DNA of 45,236 nt from the sequence record OR061068. One strand, given 5' to 3'. Made by a program: the position numbers and the translations under genes. Within the stretch, counting starts at the first letter, position 1, and each line of letters starts with the position of its first letter. Below, one piece after another: positions 1 through 45,236 of the stretch. Source of the stretch: Escherichia phage CR01. The notes under the pieces were generated by a model. It searched no databases. It was given only the letters and a program-made list of their open reading frames with translations, and had not been told where the DNA came from.

Positions 1-50
1 CCGTAAAGTTCTTTGATGGCGCGTACAACGTTTGCAGTAGCTTTGTTCAT
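1..50 (-). CDS. 5' part of a 72-aa early protein gene that wraps across the window ends (continues at 45071..45236); paralog of 32971..33189
   Basis: ATG at 50..48; reverse complement reads MNKATANVVRAIKELYG, matching the N-terminus MNKATASVVSAIKEVYG of the 32971 ORF; 50 nt here plus 166 nt at the right end = 72 codons exactly. Confidence 0.6.
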   Translation of the reverse strand, partial: MNKATANVVRAIKELY

Positions 51-61
51 TTCCAAATTCC

Positions 62-115
62 TTATCTCTCGTTTTGATGTAATGAATAGTACCCTATTAT
101 ATTGGGGTGCGCAAA
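62..115 (-). promoter_or_regulatory. conserved early promoter/operator cassette, copy driving the wrap-around gene
   Basis: Reverse complement TTTGCGCACCCCAATATAATAGGGTACTATTCATTACATCAAAACGAGAGATAAGGAATTT immediately precedes the ATG; contains TATAAT, palindrome AATAG-N4-CTATT and an AAGGA ribosome-binding site; near-identical copies at 9808-9870, 43428-43495 and 32905-32970. Confidence 0.5.
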
Positions 116-386
116 CTATTTATTTACCTATTCCAGTTATTCCACCGAATTGTAAATGTTGGAATAAACTATTCGAATAGTTGACTTTTCACTAAAAATA
201 TGATAAGCTCCACCTGAGCTTGTGAAGTATGAACAAGCGACCGCGGCGCGGGCAGGTAACGGAGCCGGACGTTAAGTCCGAGTGTAGTTACGCTGACGCG
301 TTCGGAAGGGCCATACTCTATTGCTTGTGTAAAAAGTACCGGGTTTACTGAGATTACGCCGTTTCTATGTTTAAATGATAAGGACT

Positions 387-416
387 AGCGCCCCGCTTTA
401 AGGCGGGGCTTTACTT
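387..416 (+). terminator. rho-independent terminator-like hairpin
   Basis: Stem GCCCCGC / GCGGGGC with loop TTTAAG followed by a T-rich tract. Confidence 0.4.
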
Positions 417-7225: not shown

Positions 7226-7252
7226 TAAGGCCCCGAAAGGGCCTTTTTCTTA
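7226..7252. terminator. bidirectional rho-independent terminator
   Basis: AAGGCCCCGAAAGGGCCTTTTTC: GC hairpin flanked by A-run upstream and T-run downstream; lies between convergent genes 6050..7222 (+) and 7250..7804 (-). Confidence 0.65.
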
Positions 7253-7804
7253 CAAACCTAATTTTAAAGCAATGTCTATAACGTTCGATTTAACATCACC
7301 TGGTATGATGTAGGTATCGTAATCTTTTACACCATCAACGCCATACAGATAACCACGGCTGTCCCCCTCAAATGTATAGCCTTCTCGGTGCAAGCGAACG
7401 ATTCTTACATCATGACCCGCGGCGACGATAGGGGCTACTTCACTGGCGAATCCACCGTCGGACACTACAAAAACTTCGTTGCCGTCTGGCAAGTTTTCAG
7501 CAAGATACTTACCGAAATAATCATCACCGAATACCGGTTTAATGAATTGCTCAGAAACGGCAATCATGAACTGACGACGGGACAACCCATTAAGAAAACC
7601 CTCTGGCTTTTCTTTCCGTGCCCGGTCGTCGTAGCCGTCGAGAAATTCGCGGTAAGCATCCGGGCCTAACGCTGCCAAAGCAATATCGAACATTGGATTC
7701 TTGAAACTGGTAGTTCCTTTCGCAAAGCCCATTTCTACCAGCGCCATAGCAAGTGTGTCTTTCCCGCAACCCGCCGGACCATTAAGAATAATTACCTTAG
7801 CCAT
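7250..7804 (-). CDS. P-loop kinase, dNMP kinase-like (T4 gp1-like) or polynucleotide kinase-like
   Basis: 184 aa; Walker A GPAGCGKDT at residues 8-16; downstream RRQFMIAV and VFVVSDGG...VRIVRLHREG segments resemble the T4 gp1 family as recalled; start overlaps the upstream stop (TAATG). Confidence 0.5.
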   Translation of the reverse strand: MAKVIILNGPAGCGKDTLAMALVEMGFAKGTTSFKNPMFDIALAALGPDAYREFLDGYDDRARKEKPEGFLNGLSRRQFMIAVSEQFIKPVFGDDYFGKYLAENLPDGNEVFVVSDGGFASEVAPIVAAGHDVRIVRLHREGYTFEGDSRGYLYGVDGVKDYDTYIIPGDVKSNVIDIALKLGL

Positions 7805-8289
7805 TATTTATCACTCCCGTGTGATTTTAAGTGTGTAGAGTTACCGTTACAGTCGTATCCAGTGACAGCGTGTGTGGTTATGCCGAGGCCTCGGAAATGC
7901 TTAATTACCGCCGGAGAATCATCGAATGCACACAAGATTCTCTCCAGCCCGATAGCACGCAACACCTCTTCTTTAATTGCGATGTCTTTTCTGTTGTCGT
8001 GTTTGCTGCGCATGATTAGCTGATAAAATTCGACGCGGTGGCGCTGCAACCACATTCTGGTTTCTTTTTCTGCATCATCACTACGGCCCGTTAAAATAAT
8101 AACGGCGTAGCGACGATTGAGGGCGTTACACAGTTCGATGTTATCTCTAATTGGTTCATCATCTTTGCACGCCATGTTAAAGGGCTTCCACGCCCACGTT
8201 TCGTTGTAGTTATCTTTCGGCAGCAGGTGCAAACGATGCGTACCATCAGCCAATGTCCCATCTAAATCGAAAATTACAATATCTTTCAT
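7804..8289 (-). CDS. HAD-superfamily phosphatase, T4 Pnk 3'-phosphatase-like
   Basis: 161 aa; motif I FDLDGTLA (DxDGT), motif II ILTGRSDD, RKD lysine motif, motif IV AFDDSP; order and spacing match the phosphatase domain of T4 polynucleotide kinase as recalled. Confidence 0.55.
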   Translation of the reverse strand: MKDIVIFDLDGTLADGTHRLHLLPKDNYNETWAWKPFNMACKDDEPIRDNIELCNALNRRYAVIILTGRSDDAEKETRMWLQRHRVEFYQLIMRSKHDNRKDIAIKEEVLRAIGLERILCAFDDSPAVIKHFRGLGITTHAVTGYDCNGNSTHLKSHGSDK

Positions 8290-9035
8290 CCCAGCATCTC
8301 CGGTGAAATAGTTAAACGTGCGACCTCGCCGTATTCGGCGCTATAAGTAATTACATTTGCACTACGGCCTGACATCCATCCGCCGCGGGAGGCGTAGGCA
8401 TCTTTAGCCGCCAGGGTGCGGTGTTGCTCAACAATCATGTTACGGCTTTCTACAATCTTTTGATGGTGGAGATGCCCGACATGTGCGTAACTGTACTCGC
8501 TTTCGCCAAATGCTTTTCTGAACTTAGCTATCATAATTGGCTCGACCACCTCAAACCGGCATTTATGCCCGTGTGTAAAGAACAGCGTCGTTTTGCCGTG
8601 TTGCACCATCTTGTAAACATCCGGCGACGTATCGACGAACACACGAGGCTCGTTGTCGTATAGCGTACTGAACATCTCAGCCAACCAAATCATACCTGAT
8701 TCGTCATGGTTCCCTTGCACGATAAGCAGGCGAACATTTTTATGTTTAACCAGAGCCATATCGACAACACGGCGGACCATACGAATCATGTAGCGGACCA
8801 GTTTCTGATAGCGCGTATCCGCGTCAAGAACATGACCACTCGCTGGCGTAACGGCATCCAGACTATCAAAGTGCGCGAAGTCACCAAGAAGGTTAATAAC
8901 CCCTGTTCCCGCATCTGGCGCTTTCTGAAACGCAGCATCAAACCACCGAGAGAACAGGTCTTCTGCAATCTTCATATCCCAGTCATCGCCGCTCTCGTCG
9001 GCCCATGCCAGCATACCGAGATGGAAATCAGACAC
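8286..9035 (-). CDS. calcineurin-like metallophosphoesterase (Mre11/SbcD-like), probably the C-terminal part of a fusion with the upstream HTH ORF
   Basis: Motifs SDFHLG (DxH), GDFAHFD, GNHDE, THGH, GHLHH in canonical order; annotated start is GTG with no beta-strand before the DxH motif, while the upstream frame is open. Confidence 0.6.
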   Translation of the reverse strand: MSDFHLGMLAWADESGDDWDMKIAEDLFSRWFDAAFQKAPDAGTGVINLLGDFAHFDSLDAVTPASGHVLDADTRYQKLVRYMIRMVRRVVDMALVKHKNVRLLIVQGNHDESGMIWLAEMFSTLYDNEPRVFVDTSPDVYKMVQHGKTTLFFTHGHKCRFEVVEPIMIAKFRKAFGESEYSYAHVGHLHHQKIVESRNMIVEQHRTLAAKDAYASRGGWMSGRSANVITYSAEYGEVARLTISPEMLG

Positions 9036-9412
9036 AGTGTAAAGGTTGAGTAGCTTGTCGTCTCGTTTGGTGCGAACGGCTTTAACAGGAGCAACGGGGT
9101 AATCTCCGACTTCATGCCCTCGATTACGGCCTTCATTAACTCGACCTGACGTTCCGCATCGGTGTCGGTCTTAACCCATTGCAGTTTAGTGTTGCCTAAC
9201 TCGTCCACAAGTGACGATGTTCCTTTAATCTTGTAGCCATCTGGCACAAGGTGGCTAACGTCCCGCCCGTGGCCTACGCCTTTCTTAGCCAGCTTCGCTT
9301 TACGGATGCGAATAACGCGGTCTGAGATGCCGTATTTACGGGCGATGTCGATATTCTTCATACCGGCGTTCAATTCTTCCTGTAACTGTTCGTCGGTTAT
9401 TTTCTTCCGGGC
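8972..9412 (-). CDS. HTH DNA-binding protein (N-terminal part of a probable HTH-metallophosphoesterase fusion)
   Basis: ATG 9412 with ribosome-binding site GAGGAAG; HTH-like DEQLQEELNAGMKNIDIARKYGISDRVIRIRKAK; the C-terminal 20 residues look non-native; adding one C at C-run ~9096-9099 joins this frame to the phosphoesterase. Confidence 0.45.
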   Translation of the reverse strand, partial: ARKKITDEQLQEELNAGMKNIDIARKYGISDRVIRIRKAKLAKKGVGHGRDVSHLVPDGYKIKGTSSLVDELGNTKLQWVKTDTDAERQVELMKAVIEGMKSEITPLLLLKPFAPNETTSYSTFTLCLISISVCWHGPTRAAMTGI

Positions 9413-9480
9413 CATGCTTACTTCCTCGTGTTTAGGATTTGTCCTATTTAACCACAGTGCATTCATTTAAATAAAGGCGA

Positions 9481-9807
9481 CTATTTACTTTCCGCGCCTA
9501 TCGCCCACCCGGTCATCACCATTTGCAGGCGGGTGGCTGTCAGTAGGCTGTAAAACGCGTCTCCGTTTTTCTCTACCGAACGTATTACAGAGTATGTTAC
9601 GGCTTGCGGAGGCAGGCCCGATTTACCAACCCCTACGGCAGCCTCACACTCGCGAACGGTAGAGTCCTTAAATGCCTTTACAATAGTAGGGTCGGCTTTA
9701 TCGAGCACACCAGAAGTCATAAGAACAGATTCACTAAATACCTGTTCGCACGGGGACCCAAAAGCAGCAAAAGACATAAACCCCAGAGCTAATACTAATT
9801 TACGCAT
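9481..9807 (-). CDS. small secreted/periplasmic protein (108 aa), first gene of the moron operon
   Basis: N-terminal signal peptide MRKLVLALGFMSFAAFG; gene sits immediately downstream of a conserved early promoter cassette. Confidence 0.5.
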   Translation of the reverse strand: MRKLVLALGFMSFAAFGSPCEQVFSESVLMTSGVLDKADPTIVKAFKDSTVRECEAAVGVGKSGLPPQAVTYSVIRSVEKNGDAFYSLLTATRLQMVMTGWAIGAESK

Positions 9808-9870
9808 AATTATTTCCTCAGTAAGTTACAGGTGAATAGTACCCTATTATATTGGGGTGCGCAAGTAGTG
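9808..9870 (-). promoter_or_regulatory. conserved early promoter/operator cassette driving the moron operon
   Basis: Reverse complement CTTGCGCACCCCAATATAATAGGGTACTATTCACC...GAGGAAATAATT-ATG; near-identical to the copies at 62-115 and 43428-43495. Confidence 0.5.
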
Positions 9871-9971
9871 TGTTAGAATAAGTTTGCGCCTAGTGTCGCA
9901 CACGAAAAGCGGGTGGTTCCCGTCTGGCGCGTCAACCTTAACTTGTAACCTCTTAACCAAAGGATTAAATA

Positions 9972-22531: not shown

Positions 22532-22831
22532 CTAACTATAATAGCTCGCTATTAGGTCGTCAACCTGTTTAAACGAACCAACGACAAAAACATTAGCACC
22601 GCGTTTACACATCCGCTCATGCTCCCGTAACTGGTGCGGGTCTGGCTTCGTGTTTTCGTCTTTCTTCACCTCGACGAACCAGATGATGCCACCAGGGAGA
22701 ATTGCCAGCAGGTCGGGGGCGCCGGAACGTCCTTCGTAGGAGAGCTTACGAACGAGGCCCCCAATGGCCTCGAATCGGTCTTTGCGTATTTCTGAATCTT
22801 GCCTTCCGGGGTCACAGCAAAGGCTCCGCAT
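22532..22831 (-). CDS. VRR-NUC domain nuclease
   Basis: About 99 aa from ATG 22831; motif RSGAPDLLAILPGGIIWFVEVKK (PD...E-x-K). Confidence 0.5.
   Translation of the reverse strand: MRSLCCDPGRQDSEIRKDRFEAIGGLVRKLSYEGRSGAPDLLAILPGGIIWFVEVKKDENTKPDPHQLREHERMCKRGANVFVVGSFKQVDDLIASYYS
22534..22562 (-). promoter_or_regulatory. sigma70-like promoter with operator palindrome
   Basis: Reverse complement TTGACG-ACCTAATAGCGAGCTAT-TATAGT; contains AATAG-N5-CTATT. Confidence 0.45.
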
Positions 22832-26149: not shown

Positions 26150-26182
26150 TAGAAATATAATAGCTAACTATTCAGGTGTCAA
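26150..26182 (-). promoter_or_regulatory. sigma70-like promoter with operator palindrome upstream of the SSB-like gene
   Basis: Reverse complement TTGACA-CCTGAATAGTTAGCTAT-TATATT; contains AATAG-N4-CTATT. Confidence 0.5.
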
Positions 26183-29412: not shown

Positions 29413-29525
29413 CTCTCGTTTTGTATGGGCTAACTATAATAGCGAACTATTCACTTGTCAATGGGCTTTTCTAAAATAATTAATATGGTACTATTCACAT
29501 ATCAACTGACTAAGGAGTAATTGAC
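29413..29525. promoter_or_regulatory. divergent promoter region with two operator palindromes
   Basis: Minus direction TTGACA-N17-TATAGT around AATAG-TTCG-CTATT; plus direction a second TACTATTCA copy and ribosome-binding site AAGGAG before ATG 29526. Confidence 0.6.
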
Positions 29526-32509: not shown

Positions 32510-32970
32510 TACATTGCGAATAATGGGAAATCAAACATAATCGCACCTATTGACATTAAGAAAATCTTCGTTTAAGGTGCTTCTATATCTTAGTTACTTT
32601 GATTCCTGTTCACCTTGTAAAACCCGCCGAAAACGAGCGCCCAACGCGAAGTGTTAGGCGGCAGTTTACTGAACATTCGAATTATCGTAACTTTCCTTCC
32701 TAAGTATCTCCGGTTGCCCTGGGCAAGCTCTATTCCCATCGGCGGAATATATCTTAAGTATCTGATTTTCTTAAAGTGCCGTAGATTCGCAACCGTAAAA
32801 ATGTAACGATTATTGGGCAGGCTTAGGGCCTGCCCTTTAGTTACCAAGTAATAAGAATAAAGGCACAACCCTACCTGAAGAATCACAACGGCAACGTAAC
32901 TATTCTCTTGCACACCCCAACATAATAGGTTACTATTCACTTATCGAAACGAGACATAAGGAATTTAGCA
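32510..32970. promoter_or_regulatory. 460-bp non-coding control region with divergent promoters and a terminator-like hairpin (candidate origin / ncRNA locus)
   Basis: No convincing ORF; TTGACA at 32552 with -10-like element; hairpin GGGCAGGC-TTAG-GGCCTGCCC plus T-tract at ~32816-32842; conserved cassette at 32905-32970. Confidence 0.45.
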
Positions 32971-33189
32971 ATGAACAAAGCGACTGCAAGCGTAGTTTCC
33001 GCAATCAAAGAAGTTTACGGCATCGATATTTCAGAGCGCGTAATTATCGGGAACAAACGCAGCTTCTTTACGTTCGACACCGACGGAATGGATGAAAATG
33101 ATTTTAACAACGTACAACGTTTCGCCAACGGTAAAGGGCTTCGTAACGAGCCTGCTGGTTACAAGAAATTCGCTATCTACTTTAAATAA
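32971..33189 (+). CDS. 72-aa early protein, paralog of the wrap-around gene
   Basis: MNKATASVVSAIKEVYGIDISERVIIGNKRSFFTFDTDGMDENDFNNVQRFANGKGLRNEPAGYKKFAIYFK; same length and ~80% identical to the wrap-around product; same promoter-leader cassette. Confidence 0.6.
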   Translation: MNKATASVVSAIKEVYGIDISERVIIGNKRSFFTFDTDGMDENDFNNVQRFANGKGLRNEPAGYKKFAIYFK

Positions 33190-34636: not shown

Positions 34637-34771
34637 CAGGTCAATAGTTTACTATTTGACTGAGTGACTTACGCTGCTACACAGCAGCGTACAACTTTAG
34701 ATTAGTGTCGTCAAAAAGCGACACTTTCACCGAACGCAACAATAGAAGCGATTATTGCAGGAGATGCAACA

Positions 34772-35002: not shown

Positions 35003-35071
35003 AATTTACTTGCACACTGAGATAGAATAGACTACTATTCATTTACACAAACGAGAGGAGAGAGAGAGAAT

Positions 35072-39840: not shown

Positions 39841-40386
39841 ATGAAGCTGAAACTTAAGCAGCCATCGCCAGAGGTGGTGCAAGCGGCACATGAAGAAGCT
39901 GTTAGCGCAAACCGTCGTCGTAAACGACCGCGCGGCAAACAGAGCCTTTACCAGTCATCCCGTAATTCCGCCGCGTTGTGGGACCCGGACTATTGCGACG
40001 CGTTAATCGAGTTCTTCGACCGAAACTCATGGGAACTTGTGCCTACGTCTAAGGGTGACGAACGCCCGCTGATTCAGGATAAACCGCCGTCACTGGCCCG
40101 CTTCGCCTTGCACATCGGCGTCACTATCCCGATTATTAAGCTGTGGCTGCGTGAGATTCCCGCATTTGCCGAAGCCTATGAAACAGCGCAGGCACTTGAA
40201 GAGGCATACTTCACCGAGACAGGGGCCGCCGGTATTTCTGCTACGTTTGCCGCCGCTAAACTGGGTCTCAGCAAAGAGAAACCGGTTGAATCCACCGAAG
40301 AAACAGCACCGACTGAGATTATTTTCAGTGTCGCGGAGCCTGTAGGTAAAATCGTAACAACGAATATGGGCGAGGTAGAGGAATGA
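39841..40386 (+). CDS. terminase small subunit
   Basis: 181 aa ORF immediately upstream of and overlapping the large terminase gene; basic N-terminus. Confidence 0.5.
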   Translation: MKLKLKQPSPEVVQAAHEEAVSANRRRKRPRGKQSLYQSSRNSAALWDPDYCDALIEFFDRNSWELVPTSKGDERPLIQDKPPSLARFALHIGVTIPIIKLWLREIPAFAEAYETAQALEEAYFTETGAAGISATFAAAKLGLSKEKPVESTEETAPTEIIFSVAEPVGKIVTTNMGEVEE

Positions 40387-41631
40387 GTATTCAGCTATCC
40401 GCGCCACAGGCACTGTTCCTGAATTGCGATAACAAGTACAAAGCCTATGTCGGCGGCTTCGGTAGCGGCAAGACATTCGTCGGATGTCTCGACCTGCTTA
40501 CGTTTATGCTCAAGCACCCCGGTACGCGCCTGGGCTACTTCGGCCCGACATACCCGGCCATACGTGACATCTTCTACCCGACATTCGAGGAAGCGGCTAA
40601 CCTGCTTGGCCTTGATGTGCTGGTTAAATCCGGCGACAAAGAAGTCGTTGTAACTCGCGGTAAGACTGTGCTCGGGACCGTTATCTGCCGTTCTATGGAT
40701 AACCCCGGCTCGATAGTCGGCTTCAAAATCGCGGCTGCGGTCGTGGATGAGCTGGACGTATTGAGCCGTGAGAAAGCCGAGCTGGCGTGGAACAAAATCG
40801 TAGCCCGCATGCGTCTGGTTATCCCGGGGTAATTAACCACATCTCCGTCACCACGACTCCGGAAGGGTTCAAGTTCGTTTACGCCAAGTTCAAGGAGAAC
40901 CCGACGCCGAGTTACTCAATGGTGCAGGCGTCCACTCACGAGAACGCCAGATTCCTGCCGCCGGATTACATTAGCTCGCTGACTGAGACTTACCCGGCGC
41001 AACTGATTAACGCGTATCTGAACGGTGAGTTTGTCAACCTGACATCCGGAAGCGTGTATTACGCATACGACCGACGCAAGCACCGCAGCAAAGAGACAAT
41101 TCAACCGGGCGACACGCTGTACATCGGGCAGGACTTCAACGTTACGAAGAACGCCAGCGCCGTGTATGTGCAGCGTAAAGATGGATGGCACGCGGTTGCA
41201 GAACTGAAGGGCCTGTTCGATACGCCGGACACCGTGCGCGTAATTACCGAGAAGTGGAAGTCACAAGGCCACCGCATCGTCGTTTACCCCGACGCTAGCG
41301 GCAAGAACCGTAAGACAAACTCGGCGTCAATCTCTGATATTGCATTACTCCAGCAGGCGGGTTTCGATGTTCGCGCTAAATCAGCCAACCCCCGGTTAAA
41401 GACCGCGTTTTAGCCGTGAACACCGCGCTGGAAAAAGGTAAGCTGTGGGTTAATGACCACTTATGTCCTGAGATAGCCAAGACGCTGGAACAGCAGGCAT
41501 ACGACGATAACGGAGAGCCGGCTAAAGACGGCGTCATTGACCATATGGCTGATGCTCTCGGCTATCCTGTAGTTTATGAGATGCCGGTGGTTAAACCAGT
41601 AATCAACATCCCGGTGACTTTCGCACTTTAA
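40383..41631 (+). CDS. terminase large subunit, split by two homopolymer frameshifts
   Basis: Walker A VGGFGSGKTF and Walker B AAVVDELD; three successive frames (40383..40832, 40787..41413, 41416..41631) join when one base is added at G-run ~40826-40829 and C-run ~41388-41392. Confidence 0.75.
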
Positions 41632-41643
41632 GAGGATTATTAA

Positions 41644-43112
41644 ATGTTAACTATGAACGGTCAGAATCAGGGTGTTAAGACAAAACACCGGGAATGGCTG
41701 CATCACTTCGATAAATGGCAGAAGGTGCGCCACGCACTGGAGGGCGACCTTATCCGCTATCTGCGCAACGTCGGGAAGAACGAGCCGGACCCGACCTACG
41801 CGGCACAGCGCCAGGAAGAATACGAGAACGGGGCTATCTGCTATAACTTCACCAAGCGCACCCTGGCGGGGATGGTTGGGTCGGTGATGCGCAAAGACCC
41901 CGAACAGATTATTCCGCCTGAGCTTGAGTACCTGTTACGTAACGCCGACGGTTCTGGTGTCGGGCTGTGGCAGCACGCGCAGGATACTTTGATGGAGATT
42001 GACTCGGTGGGCCGTGGCGGGTTGCTGGTGGACGCCCCGGAGACAGCCGCGGCAACGGCGGCAGAACAGAACGCGGGGCTATTAAACCCGGTCATTGCAT
42101 TCTATACCGCAGAGAACATCATAAACTGGCGACTGACCCGCGTTGGTTCAGTTAACCGTGTGACGATGGTCGTGCTGCGTGAGGTGTGGGAATACTCGGA
42201 ACCGGGCGCAGAGTTCGAAACAAAGTTCGGTGAGCAATACCGCGTTCTCGATTTGATTGATGGTCGCTACCGCCAGCGCATTTACCGCTTCGATGCCGAA
42301 GGTGGTGCGCAGGGTGAAGTAATCGAAATATTCCCTGAACTTGGTGAACAGTTGCGCGGCAAAATCCCGTTCACGTTCATTGGGGCGAGCAACAACGACG
42401 CCACTATAGACGATGCACCTTTGCTGCCGTTGGCTGAGCTCAATATCGGACATTTCCGCAACAGCGCGGACAATGAGGAGTCCAGCTTCGTTGTAGGGCA
42501 GCCCACCCTGTTCATTGCCCCAGGTGAGAACATGAGCATGGAACAGTGGAAAGAGGCCAACCCTCACGGCGTCCGCACGGGGTCGCGTTCAGGCCACAAC
42601 ATTGGTTACGGCGGCAATGCGTTTCTGGTTCAGGCAGGGAGAACAACCTCGCCAAACAGAACATGCTGGATAAAGAGAATCAGGCGATTCAGATTGGTGC
42701 GCAGCTTATCACCCCGACGCAGCAAATCACCGCTGAATCGGCCCGTCTGCAACGTGGTGCTGATACTTCAGTTATGGCAACAATCGCACGTAACGTAAGC
42801 ATGGCGTACACTGATGCGCTGCGCTGGGTGGCTGCGATGCTTGGGCTGCGTGAAGGCACAGAGATTGAGTTCAAGCTGAATATGGAGTTCTTCCTGCAAC
42901 CGATGACCGCTCAGGACCGTGCTCAGTGGATGGCGGATATTAACGCGGGTCTGTTACCGGCTACCGCTTATTATGCTGCGTTGCGCAAGGCAGGTGTAAC
43001 TGACTGGACGGACGAGGACATTCAGAACGCTATTGAGGACGCACCTCTGCCGTTGGGTGCTGTTACTCAGGTGGCTGGAGAGATTCCGCAGTCGGCGCAA
43101 CAACAGGAGTAA
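41644..43112 (+). CDS. portal protein, frameshifted at G-run ~42637-42639
   Basis: Track ORFs 41644..42798 and 42546..43112 join with one added G; position between TerL and the head morphogenesis gene. Confidence 0.6.
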
Positions 43113-43116
43113 ATAG

Positions 43117-43140
43117 AAAGGCCCCTTAAGGGGCCTTATC
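43117..43140. terminator. bidirectional rho-independent terminator
   Basis: AAAGGCCCCTTAAGGGGCCTT followed by T-rich tract; between convergent portal (+) and 43146..43427 (-). Confidence 0.6.
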
Positions 43141-43145
43141 TTTCT

Positions 43146-43427
43146 TTATACAAATATGAATCCATTGCTGGAAGAGGTGTATCGGGTGGTGCCGTTTTTC
43201 GTTTCGGGCCAACAGATATATGAGCGACCATGATACTCTACCCACCAAAGTTCTACATCGGCATCCCCATTAGGTCGCGTCAACCACCCGTGGTGCAGCC
43301 AATACTTGCGCCCTATTTTAAATATGCCTTCTTCGCATGAAGGCCTGCAACAGGCGACGCACTCTACTTGAACACCATCAACATGCACACATGTCATATG
43401 TAAATTACTGTTTGAATATTTAGCCAT
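43146..43427 (-). CDS. Cys-rich small protein (93 aa) driven by a conserved early promoter cassette
   Basis: MAKYSNSNLHMTCVHVDGVQVECVACCRPSCEEG...; lone minus-strand gene inside the late region. Confidence 0.5.
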   Translation of the reverse strand: MAKYSNSNLHMTCVHVDGVQVECVACCRPSCEEGIFKIGRKYWLHHGWLTRPNGDADVELWWVEYHGRSYICWPETKNGTTRYTSSSNGFIFV

Positions 43428-43495
43428 TTCTAAATTCCTTATCTCTCGTTTTGATGTAATGAATAGTACCCTATTATATTGGTGTCTGCAAATAT
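43428..43495 (-). promoter_or_regulatory. conserved early promoter/operator cassette
   Basis: Reverse complement TTTGCAGACACCAATATAATAGGGTACTATTCATTACATCAAAACGAGAGATAAGGAATTTAGAA-ATG. Confidence 0.5.
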
Positions 43496-43535
43496 TATTT
43501 TTATGCGTTACACTGTCTATACTACAGGAGGGCTT

Positions 43536-44578
43536 ATGAGCTTACTTACATCCCTAATCAGCCACCAGATATGGCTACAACGCGCCGCATCCGGTGAAGT
43601 GAAAGACCTCGCACCGTTTATTAAGGAGATGCGGGACGAAATCAAACGGCAGGTGCTGTTATTCGGCGACGACGGGCGAAGCACTGCGCGACTGAATAAA
43701 CTGTTACGCGACCTCGAAGAAGCACTGACAGGGCTTACAGGTGACTGGCAAACAAAGCTGACAGAAGACCTTAAGGAACTGGCGGCGTATGAGGCGGAGT
43801 GGAACGTAAAGGCACTGACCGCCAACGTAGACGCGGAGTTTGTTACACCTACCGCCGAACAGGTGTGGGCTGCTGCCGAGTTTCAACCGCTCTCATTGAG
43901 CGACAAGCCTGTTGATTTCTCTAAGCTGATGACCGGCTGGGGCGAAACAGAAGTCGAGCGCCTGGTAACCGGCGTTAAGATGGGCTTTGTACAAGGCCAA
44001 ACCACACGGCAGATTGTTAAGAATGTCGTAGGCGCTGGCGGACTGGCCGACGTCTCTGAGCGTAACGCCGCTACCGTCATCCGCACCGCGCTGTCCCACG
44101 TGTCTAACGAAGCCCGTAACGAGACGTACCGCCAGAACGAAGACATCATCGAGAAGTACGAGTGGGTGTCGACGCTAGACAGCCGTACCAGTACGATTTG
44201 CAGAGCCAGAGACGGAATGACGTGGGAAATCGGTAAAGGGCCAATGCCCCCGCCCATCCGAACTGCCGGTCGTGCACGGCTCCGGTAATCAGTTCAGAGT
44301 TCGATTTCCTGGATAAAGGTGCAAAGCGAGCGGCTAAAGGTGCGGACGGCGGTACTCAGGTAAGCGCAGACACCACCTATTACGAGTTCCTGAAGCAACA
44401 ACCGTCGTGGTTTATCGATGAAGCGCTCGGCCCGGTGCGAGGCAAGATTTTCCGTAACAGCGGTATATCACCGGAAGAGTTTCGCGTAATATCTGTAGAT
44501 GGTTTCGGGAATCCGCTGACGCTTAAGCAGATGGCGGAACTCGATAAACGTGTTGCTGATTATCTGAAAGGGGAATAA
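43536..44578 (+). CDS. head morphogenesis protein (phage Mu F-like), frameshifted at C-run ~44247-44255
   Basis: ATG 43536 with ribosome-binding site AGGAGGG; adding one C gives MPPPHPNCRSC, the PPxHxNCRC signature of Mu F / SPP1 gp7 family proteins, and extends the frame to 44578. Confidence 0.6.
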
Positions 44579-45040: not shown

Positions 45041-45070
45041 AAAAGGCCCCATTACGGGGCCTTAGTTTTA
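45041..45070. terminator. bidirectional rho-independent terminator
   Basis: AAAAGGCCCCATTACGGGGCCTTAGTTTTATTT between convergent genes. Confidence 0.6.
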
Positions 45071-45236
45071 TTTGAAGAATATCGCGAATTTCTTGTAACC
45101 CGCTGGCTCGTTGCGCAGACCGTGTTCGTTAGCAAAACGTTGTACATTGTTAAAGTCATTTTCACCCATTCCGTCCGTATCGAACGTAAAGAAATTACGT
45201 TTGTTCCCGATAAGCACACGGCTTGTGATATCAATG
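45068..45236 (-). CDS. 3' part of the wrap-around 72-aa early protein gene (start at 50..1)
   Basis: Reverse complement reads IDITSRVLIGNKRNFFTFDTDGMGENDFNNVQRFANEHGLRNEPAGYKKFAIFFK-stop, collinear with residues 18-72 of the 32971..33189 product. Confidence 0.6.
   Translation of the reverse strand, partial: IDITSRVLIGNKRNFFTFDTDGMGENDFNNVQRFANEHGLRNEPAGYKKFAIFFK

What the first reader, a model, noticed from the sequence alone, without database searches (positions are those of the whole stretch)
43146..43427. Cys-rich 93-aa protein as a lone early-promoter gene between portal and head morphogenesis genes
A single minus-strand gene, flanked by a bidirectional terminator and a conserved early promoter cassette, interrupts the late operon. 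Its product has six Cys in the N-terminal 31 residues (CVHVDGVQVECVACCRPSC), suggesting metal binding. Together with the wrap-around paralog and the moron operon at 7250-9870 this is the third self-contained promoter-gene-terminator unit placed antisense within late genes. Such units often carry host-interaction or anti-defence functions.
Basis: partly seen in the sequence, partly recalled or inferred. Interest (0 to 1): 0.45.

Follow-up and report, generated by a model that had tools for sequence, protein, structure and literature searches.

The report
Swappable small phage gene, Gp54-like fold
A 93-amino-acid gene sitting backwards between two head-assembly genes of an E. coli phage is a real, optional, self-contained cassette; its cysteines are not conserved, so metal binding is unlikely, and its predicted shape matches only one solved protein, a small phage protein that sets off a bacterial immune sensor, though its own job is untested.

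Summary
The ORF at 43146-43427 (-) is real. It is under purifying selection (pN/pS 0.31). It lies between a bidirectional terminator hairpin and a conserved promoter and leader. That promoter pattern occurs exactly five times in the window (0.015 expected). The window is a Kagunavirus-like coliphage, 99.9% identical to phage M01.

The gene is optional: 5 of 109 related phage records carry it. The same slot is empty or holds unrelated genes in relatives, and the same gene sits in a second slot in two relatives. Homologs at 37-41% identity occur in 19 Wifcevirus-type myophage records, inside arrays of small hypothetical genes.

The metal-binding idea fails. Only C72 is invariant, and C26, C27 and C31 vary even among close relatives.

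Best reading: an accessory, probably early-expressed, Gp54-like host-protein binder, plausibly immunity-related. Its function is inferred, not shown.

The parts
43109..43534 (.). Whole insert relative to the empty site of phage UTI-CM001
   Evidence: The blastn match to L002 stops at 43108 and resumes at 43535. The empty site has only about 85 bp there.
43113..43500 (-). Transferable unit: terminator, ORF, leader and promoter. It is found intact in the other slot (after the decoration gene) in EP-B-K_E2 and in the P0005 contig.
   Evidence: Window 43113-43500 matches L003 3001-3388 at 93.3%, and 43117-43500 matches L011 at 84.2%.
43118..43137 (.). Bidirectional intrinsic-terminator-like hairpin AAGGCCCC-TTAA-GGGGCCTT. 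It ends both the portal transcript and the antisense gene.
   Evidence: One search reports 8 pairs (6 GC) with T-rich tails on both strands. It belongs to the hairpin family D4.
43146..43427 (-). 93-aa ORF. Predicted six-stranded beta protein with strands at 13-26, 41-49, 58-65, 68-77, 80-85 and 90-92. The variable beta1-beta2 loop (27-40) ends in the FKxG motif.
43139..43459 (-). Cargo plus cargo-specific leader. This segment is replaced by unrelated genes in K-02 and UTEC10.
   Evidence: Matches to L004 and L005 stop at 43138/43147 and resume at 43460. The unrelated proteins are shown.
43432..43451 (-). Conserved leader AAACGAGAGATAAGGAATTT, which includes the Shine-Dalgarno AAGGA at 43436-43440.
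   Evidence: An identical 20-mer lies at 55-74. Near-identical leaders precede the ORFs at 32971 and 35072.
43463..43491 (-). Class-A sigma70-like promoter TTGCAG-N17-TACTAT. The -10 element lies in the right arm of the palindrome AATAGGGTACTATT (43462-43475).
   Evidence: The pattern gives 5 hits against 0.015 expected. The palindrome occurs 9 times against 0.03 expected. Transcription itself is not shown.
86..114 (-). Sister class-A promoter of the wrap-around 72-aa gene in slot B
9836..9864 (-). Sister class-A promoter of the antisense operon 7250-9807
32908..32936 (+). Sister class-A promoter heading the rightward array of small ORFs from 32971
35010..35038 (+). Sister class-A promoter heading the rightward array of small ORFs from 35072

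Best explanation
The gene is the cargo of a modular, exchangeable accessory cassette made of terminator, ORF, leader and promoter. The phage is a virulent Kagunavirus-like coliphage.

Host RNA polymerase probably transcribes the gene from its own TTGCAG-N17-TACTAT promoter. The same promoter class, with the same palindromic element, heads the arrays of small ORFs at 32.9 and 35.0 kb. Expression would therefore be independent of the late operon it interrupts and probably early.

The product is a cytoplasmic six-stranded beta protein of the Gp54(Bas11) type. It has a conserved core (FKxG, HGW, E-WW-EY-G) and a variable 14-residue beta1-beta2 loop.

By analogy with Gp54, it most likely acts stoichiometrically by binding a host protein through that loop and the adjoining sheet. 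The most plausible class of partner is a component of host immunity. The protein could inhibit that partner, be sensed by it as a trigger, or both.

Shown at sequence level: the cassette anatomy, its optional and mobile distribution, purifying selection, and non-conservation of the Cys. Predicted: the fold. Inferred: the timing, the binding mode and the target.
For: Real gene: pN/pS is 0.31, and homologs at 37-41% identity occur in Wifcevirus.

Optional and mobile: 5 of 109 related records carry it. Slot A is empty in UTI-CM001 and holds unrelated genes in K-02, UTEC10 and the P0005 contig. The gene itself is in slot B in EP-B-K_E2 and the P0005 contig. The boundaries are nested and modular.

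Promoter class: exactly 5 copies against 0.015 expected, each 28-35 nt before an ATG. Two of them head arrays of small proteins of unknown function. The same motif was reported as a repeated promoter-like consensus in another Kagunavirus (PMC9825357).

Both AF2 models have a 14-residue beta1-beta2 loop with FKxG ending 2 residues before beta2. F, K and G are invariant in both families. G24D in Gp54 is a CapRel escape mutation.

Similar context: Gp54 is also small and non-essential, and escape mutations map to a probable promoter just upstream of it. The Wifcevirus homolog is also preceded by a promoter-like site.

The family is absent from 185,579 species-representative genomes.
Against: No sequence method links the family to Gp54. 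The Pfam Gp54 model PF25180 gives no hit at E up to 10. BLASTP finds nothing. hhalign gives E 0.36 over 10 columns. Reciprocal HMM searches find nothing.

The native function of Gp54 is itself unknown. Its homologs differing by 3 residues do not trigger CapRel, so no specific partner can be transferred by analogy.

The variable loop shows no positive selection (pN/pS 0.42, with pS also raised).

There are no transcription data, and the -35 element matches the consensus at only 3 of 6 positions.
Confidence: 0.45

Rival explanations
1. The fold and cassette are as in the best explanation, but the target is a housekeeping host protein (transcription, replication, division or metabolism). That would make it a classical early host-takeover factor rather than an immunity-related one.
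For: The gene shares its promoter class with arrays of small early-type ORFs. The Wifcevirus homolog sits in a long array of small hypothetical genes and is present in 19 Wifcevirus-type records; fewer than 20 isolates of the genus were sequenced according to PMC11990801. That suggests a general rather than a strain-specific role there. Gp54's native role is unknown.
Against: In Kagunavirus the gene is rare (5 of 109 records) and is swapped with unrelated cargo. That pattern fits niche-specific accessory functions such as counter-defence better. The only experimentally known partner of this fold is a defence protein.
Confidence: 0.25
2. One reading: a metal-binding (zinc) protein that uses the N-terminal Cys cluster C23-x2-C26-C27-x3-C31.
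For: This allele has five Cys within 19 residues. The cluster lies at the end of beta1 and in the following loop, where a small site could form. The same cluster is present in P0001, which stands for 20 member sequences.
Against: C26 is R or Q, C27 is E, and C31 is G or S in relatives 76-89% identical. C23 is Y in P0018. Wifcevirus homologs keep at most two or three Cys, and only C72 is invariant. No Pfam zinc-finger or zinc-ribbon match appears at E up to 10. Gp54 has no such site.
Confidence: 0.07
3. A miniature relative of PLL/tectonin-type beta-propeller blades: a Trp-rich beta-meander that might oligomerise and bind a glycan or another small ligand, rather than a Gp54-like barrel.
Confidence: 0.08
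4. A virion or assembly protein, such as an internal head or decoration protein, as its position among head genes might suggest.
For: It lies between the portal and head-morphogenesis genes. The cargo of the sister slot in this window matches a PHROG annotated 'internal head protein'.
Against: It is antisense to the head operon and has its own promoter and terminator. It is absent from about 95% of relatives, and unrelated genes replace it. Its Wifcevirus homolog is not in the structural module. It matches no structural-protein family.
Confidence: 0.04
5. Not a functional protein: a chance ORF inside a regulatory spacer or an antisense-RNA unit.
For: No family annotation exists.
Against: pN/pS is 0.31 with no indels across six alleles. 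There is 37-41% protein identity to Wifcevirus homologs. The AF2 model is confident. A conserved RBS is present.
Confidence: 0.02

Closest known systems
Gp54 of Escherichia phage Bas11 (PDB 9AXB; Pfam PF25180 'Phage antiviral trigger protein Gp54'), the second direct trigger of the CapRel(SJ46) toxin-antitoxin defence protein (Zhang et al., Nature 2024, PMC11578894)
   Same: - Both are small cytoplasmic proteins of coliphages and dispensable: Gp54 is non-essential, and the target is absent from most relatives.
- Each is the first gene after its own promoter-like site.
- Both have a 14-residue beta1-beta2 loop ending in an invariant FKxG two residues before beta2.
   Different: - There is no detectable sequence homology, and Foldseek does not recover the match.
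- The target is 93 aa rather than 66, with about 12 extra N-terminal residues, longer strands and a longer beta2-beta3 connection.
- Its conserved core motifs (HGWLTR-N, E-WW-EY-G) are absent from Gp54.
- It occurs in different phage groups (Kagunavirus and Wifcevirus rather than Drexlerviridae).
- CapRel binding is untested.
Morons of lambdoid phages: promoter-gene-terminator units inserted between late genes (Juhala et al. 2000 and Hendrix et al. 2000, cited from my own knowledge)
   Same: It is an autonomous transcription unit with its own promoter and terminator, inserted between two genes of a late operon. It is present or absent between close relatives with sharp boundaries.
   Different: - The host phage is virulent, so there is no expression from a prophage.
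- The unit is antisense to the operon.
- The promoter and terminator are shared backbone modules at two fixed slots, between which different cargos and the same cargo are exchanged. This looks more like cassette swapping than independent insertions.
PLL / tectonin-type beta-propeller lectin blades (e.g. Photorhabdus PLL3, PDB 6T96)
   Same: There is a local motif resemblance, F-x-x-G ... H-x-W-x-T-x-P-N and G-R-S-Y-x-x-W ... N-G-T, over about 40 residues.
[quoted passage not shown] T7 Ocr with restriction-modification systems and PARIS), as discussed in PMC11578894
   Same: It is a small, dispensable, probably early accessory protein. The proposed logic of action is direct protein binding.
   Different: There is no structural or sequence relation to Ocr, and no experimental link to any defence system.

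Membership tests
Gp54 family (Pfam PF25180) | Sequence match to the family profile above the gathering score (27 bits) | tested here: not met
   hmmscan of the window protein and of homologs P0004, P0007 and P0018 gives no PF25180 hit at E up to 10, whereas Gp54 itself scores 116 bits. A local HMM of 14 Gp54 homologs finds nothing in the window. hhalign gives E 0.36.
Gp54 family (Pfam PF25180) | Six-stranded small beta-barrel with a prominent beta1-beta2 loop (the 9AXB fold) | tested here: met
Gp54 family (Pfam PF25180) | Direct binding to and activation of CapRel(SJ46) | not testable with these tools
   This needs co-expression toxicity, ITC or co-IP as in PMC11578894. Even Gp54 homologs with 3 substitutions fail to trigger CapRel, so no prediction is possible.
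Gp54 family (Pfam PF25180) | Dispensable small accessory gene with its own upstream promoter | tested here: met
   The gene is absent from about 95% of related Kagunavirus records. A conserved promoter-like element lies 35 nt upstream. Promoter activity is not shown.
Moron (autonomous promoter-gene-terminator insert in a late operon) | Own terminator directly downstream | tested here: met
   The hairpin at 43118-43137 lies 8 nt after the stop codon.
Moron (autonomous promoter-gene-terminator insert in a late operon) | Own promoter directly upstream | tested here: inconclusive
   A conserved TTGCAG-N17-TACTAT is present, with 5 copies against 0.015 expected. However, the -35 element matches at 3 of 6 positions, the generic scan did not call it, and there are no transcript data.
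Moron (autonomous promoter-gene-terminator insert in a late operon) | Presence or absence between close relatives, with sharp boundaries between conserved flanking genes | tested here: met
   The empty site is in UTI-CM001, and the boundaries are 43108/43535.
Moron (autonomous promoter-gene-terminator insert in a late operon) | Expression from a repressed prophage to the benefit of the lysogen | tested here: not met
   A Kagunavirus genome paper reports no integrase or lysogeny genes (PMC9825357). No homolog was found in 185,579 bacterial and archaeal species genomes.
Zinc-ribbon / Cys-rich metal-binding small proteins | A conserved set of at least three or four Cys/His ligands | tested here: not met
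   Only C72 is invariant. C23 is Y in P0018. C26, C27 and C31 are replaced in close relatives.
Zinc-ribbon / Cys-rich metal-binding small proteins | Match to a known zinc-binding domain profile or fold | tested here: not met
PLL/tectonin-type propeller lectins | Tandem blade repeats of about 47 aa with a significant profile match | tested here: not met
   There is no internal repeat: the best self-score of 14 compares with a shuffle mean of 16.4. The best single-blade match is 8.8 bits with i-E 16. The hhalign probability is 4.6%.

The most novel reading that the evidence does not exclude
The target family, Gp54 (PF25180) and several other small hypothetical proteins would belong to one widespread, fast-diverging superfamily. 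The other candidates carry the same 'Cys-strand, loop, FK-x-G-xx-Y-x-L' signature: bas11_0048, bas11_0071 and Bas100_0084/Mansfield_101. The motif gives 7 hits against 0.2 expected.

On this reading the superfamily consists of six-stranded mini-barrels that coliphages use as interchangeable host-protein binders. The refoldable beta1-beta2 loop would set the specificity. Host immune sensors such as CapRel would have learned to recognise the scaffold. It would thus be a shared, PAMP-like effector fold shuttled between phages on promoter/terminator-bounded cassettes.
Probability: 0.2. Interest if true: 0.65.

Novelty: new variant of a known kind. Interest (0 to 1): 0.4.

Why it matters
Gp54(Bas11) is one of the few phage proteins known at atomic detail to be read directly by a bacterial immune sensor. 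Its native function is unknown, and its fold was described as very rare.

A second, sequence-unrelated family with the same predicted fold would give comparative leverage on what this scaffold does. This family occurs in two other coliphage genera. In Kagunavirus it behaves as an optional cargo at a cassette-swapping hotspot.

It would also give a simple experimental handle: natural phages with and without the gene, with the gene in two different slots, and with Cys-rich or Cys-poor loops.

The two slots, bounded by a shared promoter and terminator, are also ready-made sites for engineering Kagunaviruses, which are being used as synthetic-biology chassis (PMC11990801). If the fold assignment is wrong, what remains is an ordinary ORFan moron.

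Tried and rejected
1. Family assignment by sequence. Pfam, PHROGs and PADLOC gave nothing. phmmer against 1.84 billion representatives gave only the Kagunavirus and Wifcevirus clusters, plus repeat proteins (P0006, P0008-P0011) whose E-values come from many short stretches. These repeat hits were rejected as sum-of-repeat artefacts.

2. A profile search of 5.8 billion proteins added only Wifcevirus-type members. IMG/VR gave 2 Wifcevirus-size contigs, and the species-representative genomes gave none.

3. Foldseek against BFVD and the PDB found nothing significant and did not recover 9axb.

4. Sequence link to Gp54. BLASTP, hhalign and reciprocal HMMs were all negative, apart from the FKxG motif.

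5. Positive selection on the Cys-bearing loop. pN is three times that of the core, but pS is also higher, so omega is 0.42 and there is no signal.

6. Internal duplication or a two-blade lectin architecture: no repeat signal.

7. A plus-strand reading of the cassette (TTGATG-18-TATATT) as the main promoter. This was rejected because its -35 element lies in the cargo-specific leader and is lost in K-02 and UTEC10. The minus-strand -35 and -10 elements are conserved in every copy. A weak divergent promoter that restarts late transcription is not excluded.

8. The 100% identity of 43146-43500 to phage AMO_3701M, against about 90% in the flanks, as evidence of very recent transfer. This was not used, because the two records have identical length and gene coordinates, which suggests a reference-guided assembly.

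9. Rfam and tRNA scans of the window found nothing.

Full report
WHAT THE WINDOW IS. The 801 bases around the finding are 99.9% identical to Escherichia phage M01 (Guernseyvirinae). They match 109 phage records, nearly all Kagunavirus-type coliphages. Joining the window's end to its start gives an intact 72-aa gene with its leader and promoter across the junction, so the two ends appear contiguous, as in a permuted genome.

THE OBSERVATION. The ORF 43146..43427 (-) exists, has an ATG start and encodes 93 aa. Eight bases past its stop codon lies the hairpin AAGGCCCCTTAAGGGGCCTT (43118-43137). The hairpin has T-rich tails on both strands. It also closes the portal gene, which ends at 43112.

Upstream of the ORF there is a Shine-Dalgarno AAGGA (43436-43440) and a leader, AAACGAGAGATAAGGAATTT. 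The same leader occurs at 55-74. Further upstream is TTGCAG-N17-TACTAT at 43463-43491. The 79-nt stretch 43425-43503 is 89% identical to 48-126, and its core recurs at 9833-9874.

The pattern TTGC[AG][CG]-N17-TACTAT occurs exactly five times in 45 kb, against 0.015 expected. The copies are at 86-114(-), 9836-9864(-), 43463-43491(-), 32908-32936(+) and 35010-35038(+). Each lies 28-35 nt before an ATG on the same strand.

All five copies contain the palindrome AATAG-N4-CTATT. The palindrome occurs nine times in the window, against 0.03 expected. It is also part of three near-consensus TTGACA-N17-TATAGT/TATATT promoters in front of the leftward genes at 22.5, 26.2 and 29.4 kb. The same motif (tgAATAGTa-ccTATTat-T) was reported as a repeated, PHIRE-predicted promoter consensus in Kagunavirus fBC-Eco01 (PMC9825357).

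- There are five Cys in the first 31 residues and six in all.
- The wrap-around gene shares only the promoter and leader with the target. Its 72-aa product is a paralog of the gene at 32971-33189.
- 'Early' is an inference. Two sister promoters head arrays of small ORFs of unknown function, but no expression data exist.

IT IS A REAL GENE. Six alleles, all 93 codons long without indels, give pN/pS = 0.31. Proteins of 97-101 aa (120 aa in one longer gene call) with 37-41% identity are encoded by 19 Wifcevirus-type myophage records. According to PMC11990801, fewer than 20 isolates of that genus had been sequenced, so the gene is close to universal there.

IT IS OPTIONAL AND MODULAR IN KAGUNAVIRUS. 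Only 5 of the 109 related records carry the gene. The states of the junction between the portal and head-morphogenesis genes (slot A) are:
- UTI-CM001: only about 85 bp, an empty site.
- K-02: an unrelated 94-aa gene.
- UTEC10: two unrelated genes.
- The P0005 contig: three other small genes.
- 22664BS2 and the P0003 and P0004 contigs: a homolog of the target.
These states are shown.

In EP-B-K_E2 and the P0005 contig the same 93-aa gene sits in a second slot, after the decoration gene (slot B). In this window, slot B holds the 72-aa wrap-around gene.

The blastn boundaries are nested:
- 43109-43534 is missing from the empty site.
- 43113-43500 (terminator to promoter) is what the slot-B copies share.
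- 43139-43459 (cargo plus leader) is what is replaced when the cargo differs.

Across the four alleles compared by region (excluding the identical M01), the promoter and leader are more conserved (94-100%) than the flanking structural genes (89-92%). In the three diverged alleles the ORF itself is less conserved (about 84%). My inference is that cargos are exchanged by recombination within the shared promoter and terminator modules.

THE CYS CLUSTER IS NOT A FAMILY TRAIT. In relatives 76-89% identical, C26 is R or Q, C27 is E, and C31 is G or S. Wifcevirus homologs read VCVALNESY in this stretch, and C23 is Y in P0018. Only C72 is invariant. No zinc-binding family matches. A metal site could exist at most in this particular allele.

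The conserved positions are F36, K37, G39, Y42, L44, H46, G47, D57, E59, W61, W62, E64, Y65, G67, C72, G79, Y83, G89 and F92.

THE FOLD. AlphaFold2 on the 16-sequence alignment gives pLDDT 82.3 and pTM 0.72. The model has six strands (13-26, 41-49, 58-65, 68-77, 80-85, 90-92) and a 14-residue loop (27-40). That loop carries the variable Cys and ends in FKIG.

I retrieved Gp54 from MZ501085.1 and modelled it. Its beta1-beta2 loop is also 14 residues (12-25) and also ends in FKKG two residues before beta2. F, K and G are invariant in both families, and G24D is a CapRel escape mutation.

Several results count against the link:
- The Pfam Gp54 model does not hit the target.
- BLASTP finds nothing.
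- hhalign aligns only the FKxG segment, with E 0.36.
- Reciprocal HMM searches are negative.
- Foldseek did not list 9axb or any BFVD relative.
I therefore treat the Gp54-like fold as likely (about 0.7) and common ancestry as open.

HOW IT MOST LIKELY WORKS. Shown at sequence level: an autonomous, exchangeable unit, antisense in the late operon, under purifying selection. Inferred: host RNA polymerase starts about 7 nt after TACTAT and makes a short monocistronic mRNA that ends at the hairpin. Timing would follow the other class-A promoters, and the shared palindrome suggests a common regulator. Predicted: a cytoplasmic Gp54-type mini-barrel. Inferred by analogy: it works by stoichiometric binding of a host protein through the beta1-beta2 loop and the adjoining sheet. 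An immunity component is the most plausible partner class, either as a target or as a sensor. No specific partner can be named, because Gp54 homologs that differ by three residues already lose CapRel activation.

DISTRIBUTION. Searches of 1.84 and 5.8 billion proteins, of IMG/VR and of 185,579 species genomes find the family only in Kagunavirus- and Wifcevirus-type phage sequences.

VERDICT. The metal-binding reading is not supported. The accessory, host-interaction reading is plausible and now has a concrete, testable structural lead. In novelty terms it is a new, sequence-unrelated variant of the Gp54 kind of small accessory protein, carried on a moron-like swap cassette. Interest is moderate.

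Noticed in passing
L009 37578-37943 (bas11_0048), L009 45147-45338 (bas11_0071), L006 4555-4896 (Bas100_0084), L007 4155-4496 (Mansfield_101): Other small hypothetical proteins of Bas11 and Wifcevirus carry the same signature: a Cys-containing strand, a loop, then FK-x-G-xx-Y/F-x-L/I/V. The motif gives 7 hits against 0.2 expected in shuffles (three are the target family itself). This may point to a wider superfamily of Gp54-like mini-barrels. All match only PHROGs of unknown function or nothing.
   Followed up: partly
window 40383-41631, 41644-43112, 43538-44578, 8286-9466: Essential genes are split into overlapping or adjacent ORFs: large terminase in 3 pieces, portal in 2, head morphogenesis in 2, and exonuclease in 2. 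The M01 and AMO_3701M records annotate several of the same splits. These are probably frameshift sequencing errors rather than biology. The target ORF itself is intact and agrees with independent assemblies.
   Followed up: partly
window 85-98, 9835-9848, 22540-22553, 26159-26172, 29438-29451, 32924-32937, 34643-34656, 35026-35039, 43462-43475: The 14-bp palindrome AATAG-N4-CTATT occurs 9 times, against 0.03 expected. Eight of the nine copies overlap the spacer or the -10 of the two promoter classes described above; the copy at 34643 was not assigned to either class. This looks like an operator for an unidentified phage regulator. The same motif was published as a PHIRE consensus for Kagunavirus fBC-Eco01.
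   Followed up: partly
window 45052-45236 joined to 1-50 (-), and 32971-33189 (+): Two 72-aa paralogs (both phrog_7673, annotated 'internal head protein') each sit behind a class-A promoter and the same leader. One is the cargo of slot B and the other is the first gene of the rightward small-ORF array. So a cargo gene in this genome has a copy in the presumed early region.
   Followed up: partly
window 7250-9807 (-): The antisense operon encodes a 108-aa protein with a signal-peptide-like N-terminus, a metallophosphoesterase/exonuclease (split), a PNKP-type HAD phosphatase and a P-loop kinase. This is a nucleic-acid end-repair set, reminiscent of the T4 Pnk tRNA-repair counter-defence (from my own knowledge).
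   Followed up: partly
window about 130-400 (+): A promoter-like TTGACT-N17-TAAGCT is followed by about 230 nt without an ORF. The stretch ends in the hairpin GCGCCCCGC-TTTAA-GGCGGGGC plus a T-run, just before the spanin genes (433-819). It may be a small RNA. Rfam gave no hit.
   Followed up: partly
L014 (PQ474795.1) compared with window 42600-44000: Phage AMO_3701M has the same record length and gene coordinates as M01. It is 100% identical across 43146-43500 but only about 90% identical in the flanks. This is either a very recent cassette transfer or a reference-guided assembly artefact.
   Followed up: no
L009 39981-40020 compared with window 43428-43456: The leader of Bas11 gene 54 (CAAAACGAAACTGAGGAATCAAAAATG) resembles the class-A leader (CAAAACGAGAGATAAGGAATTTAGAAATG). 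The resemblance is short and A-rich, so it may be chance.
   Followed up: no
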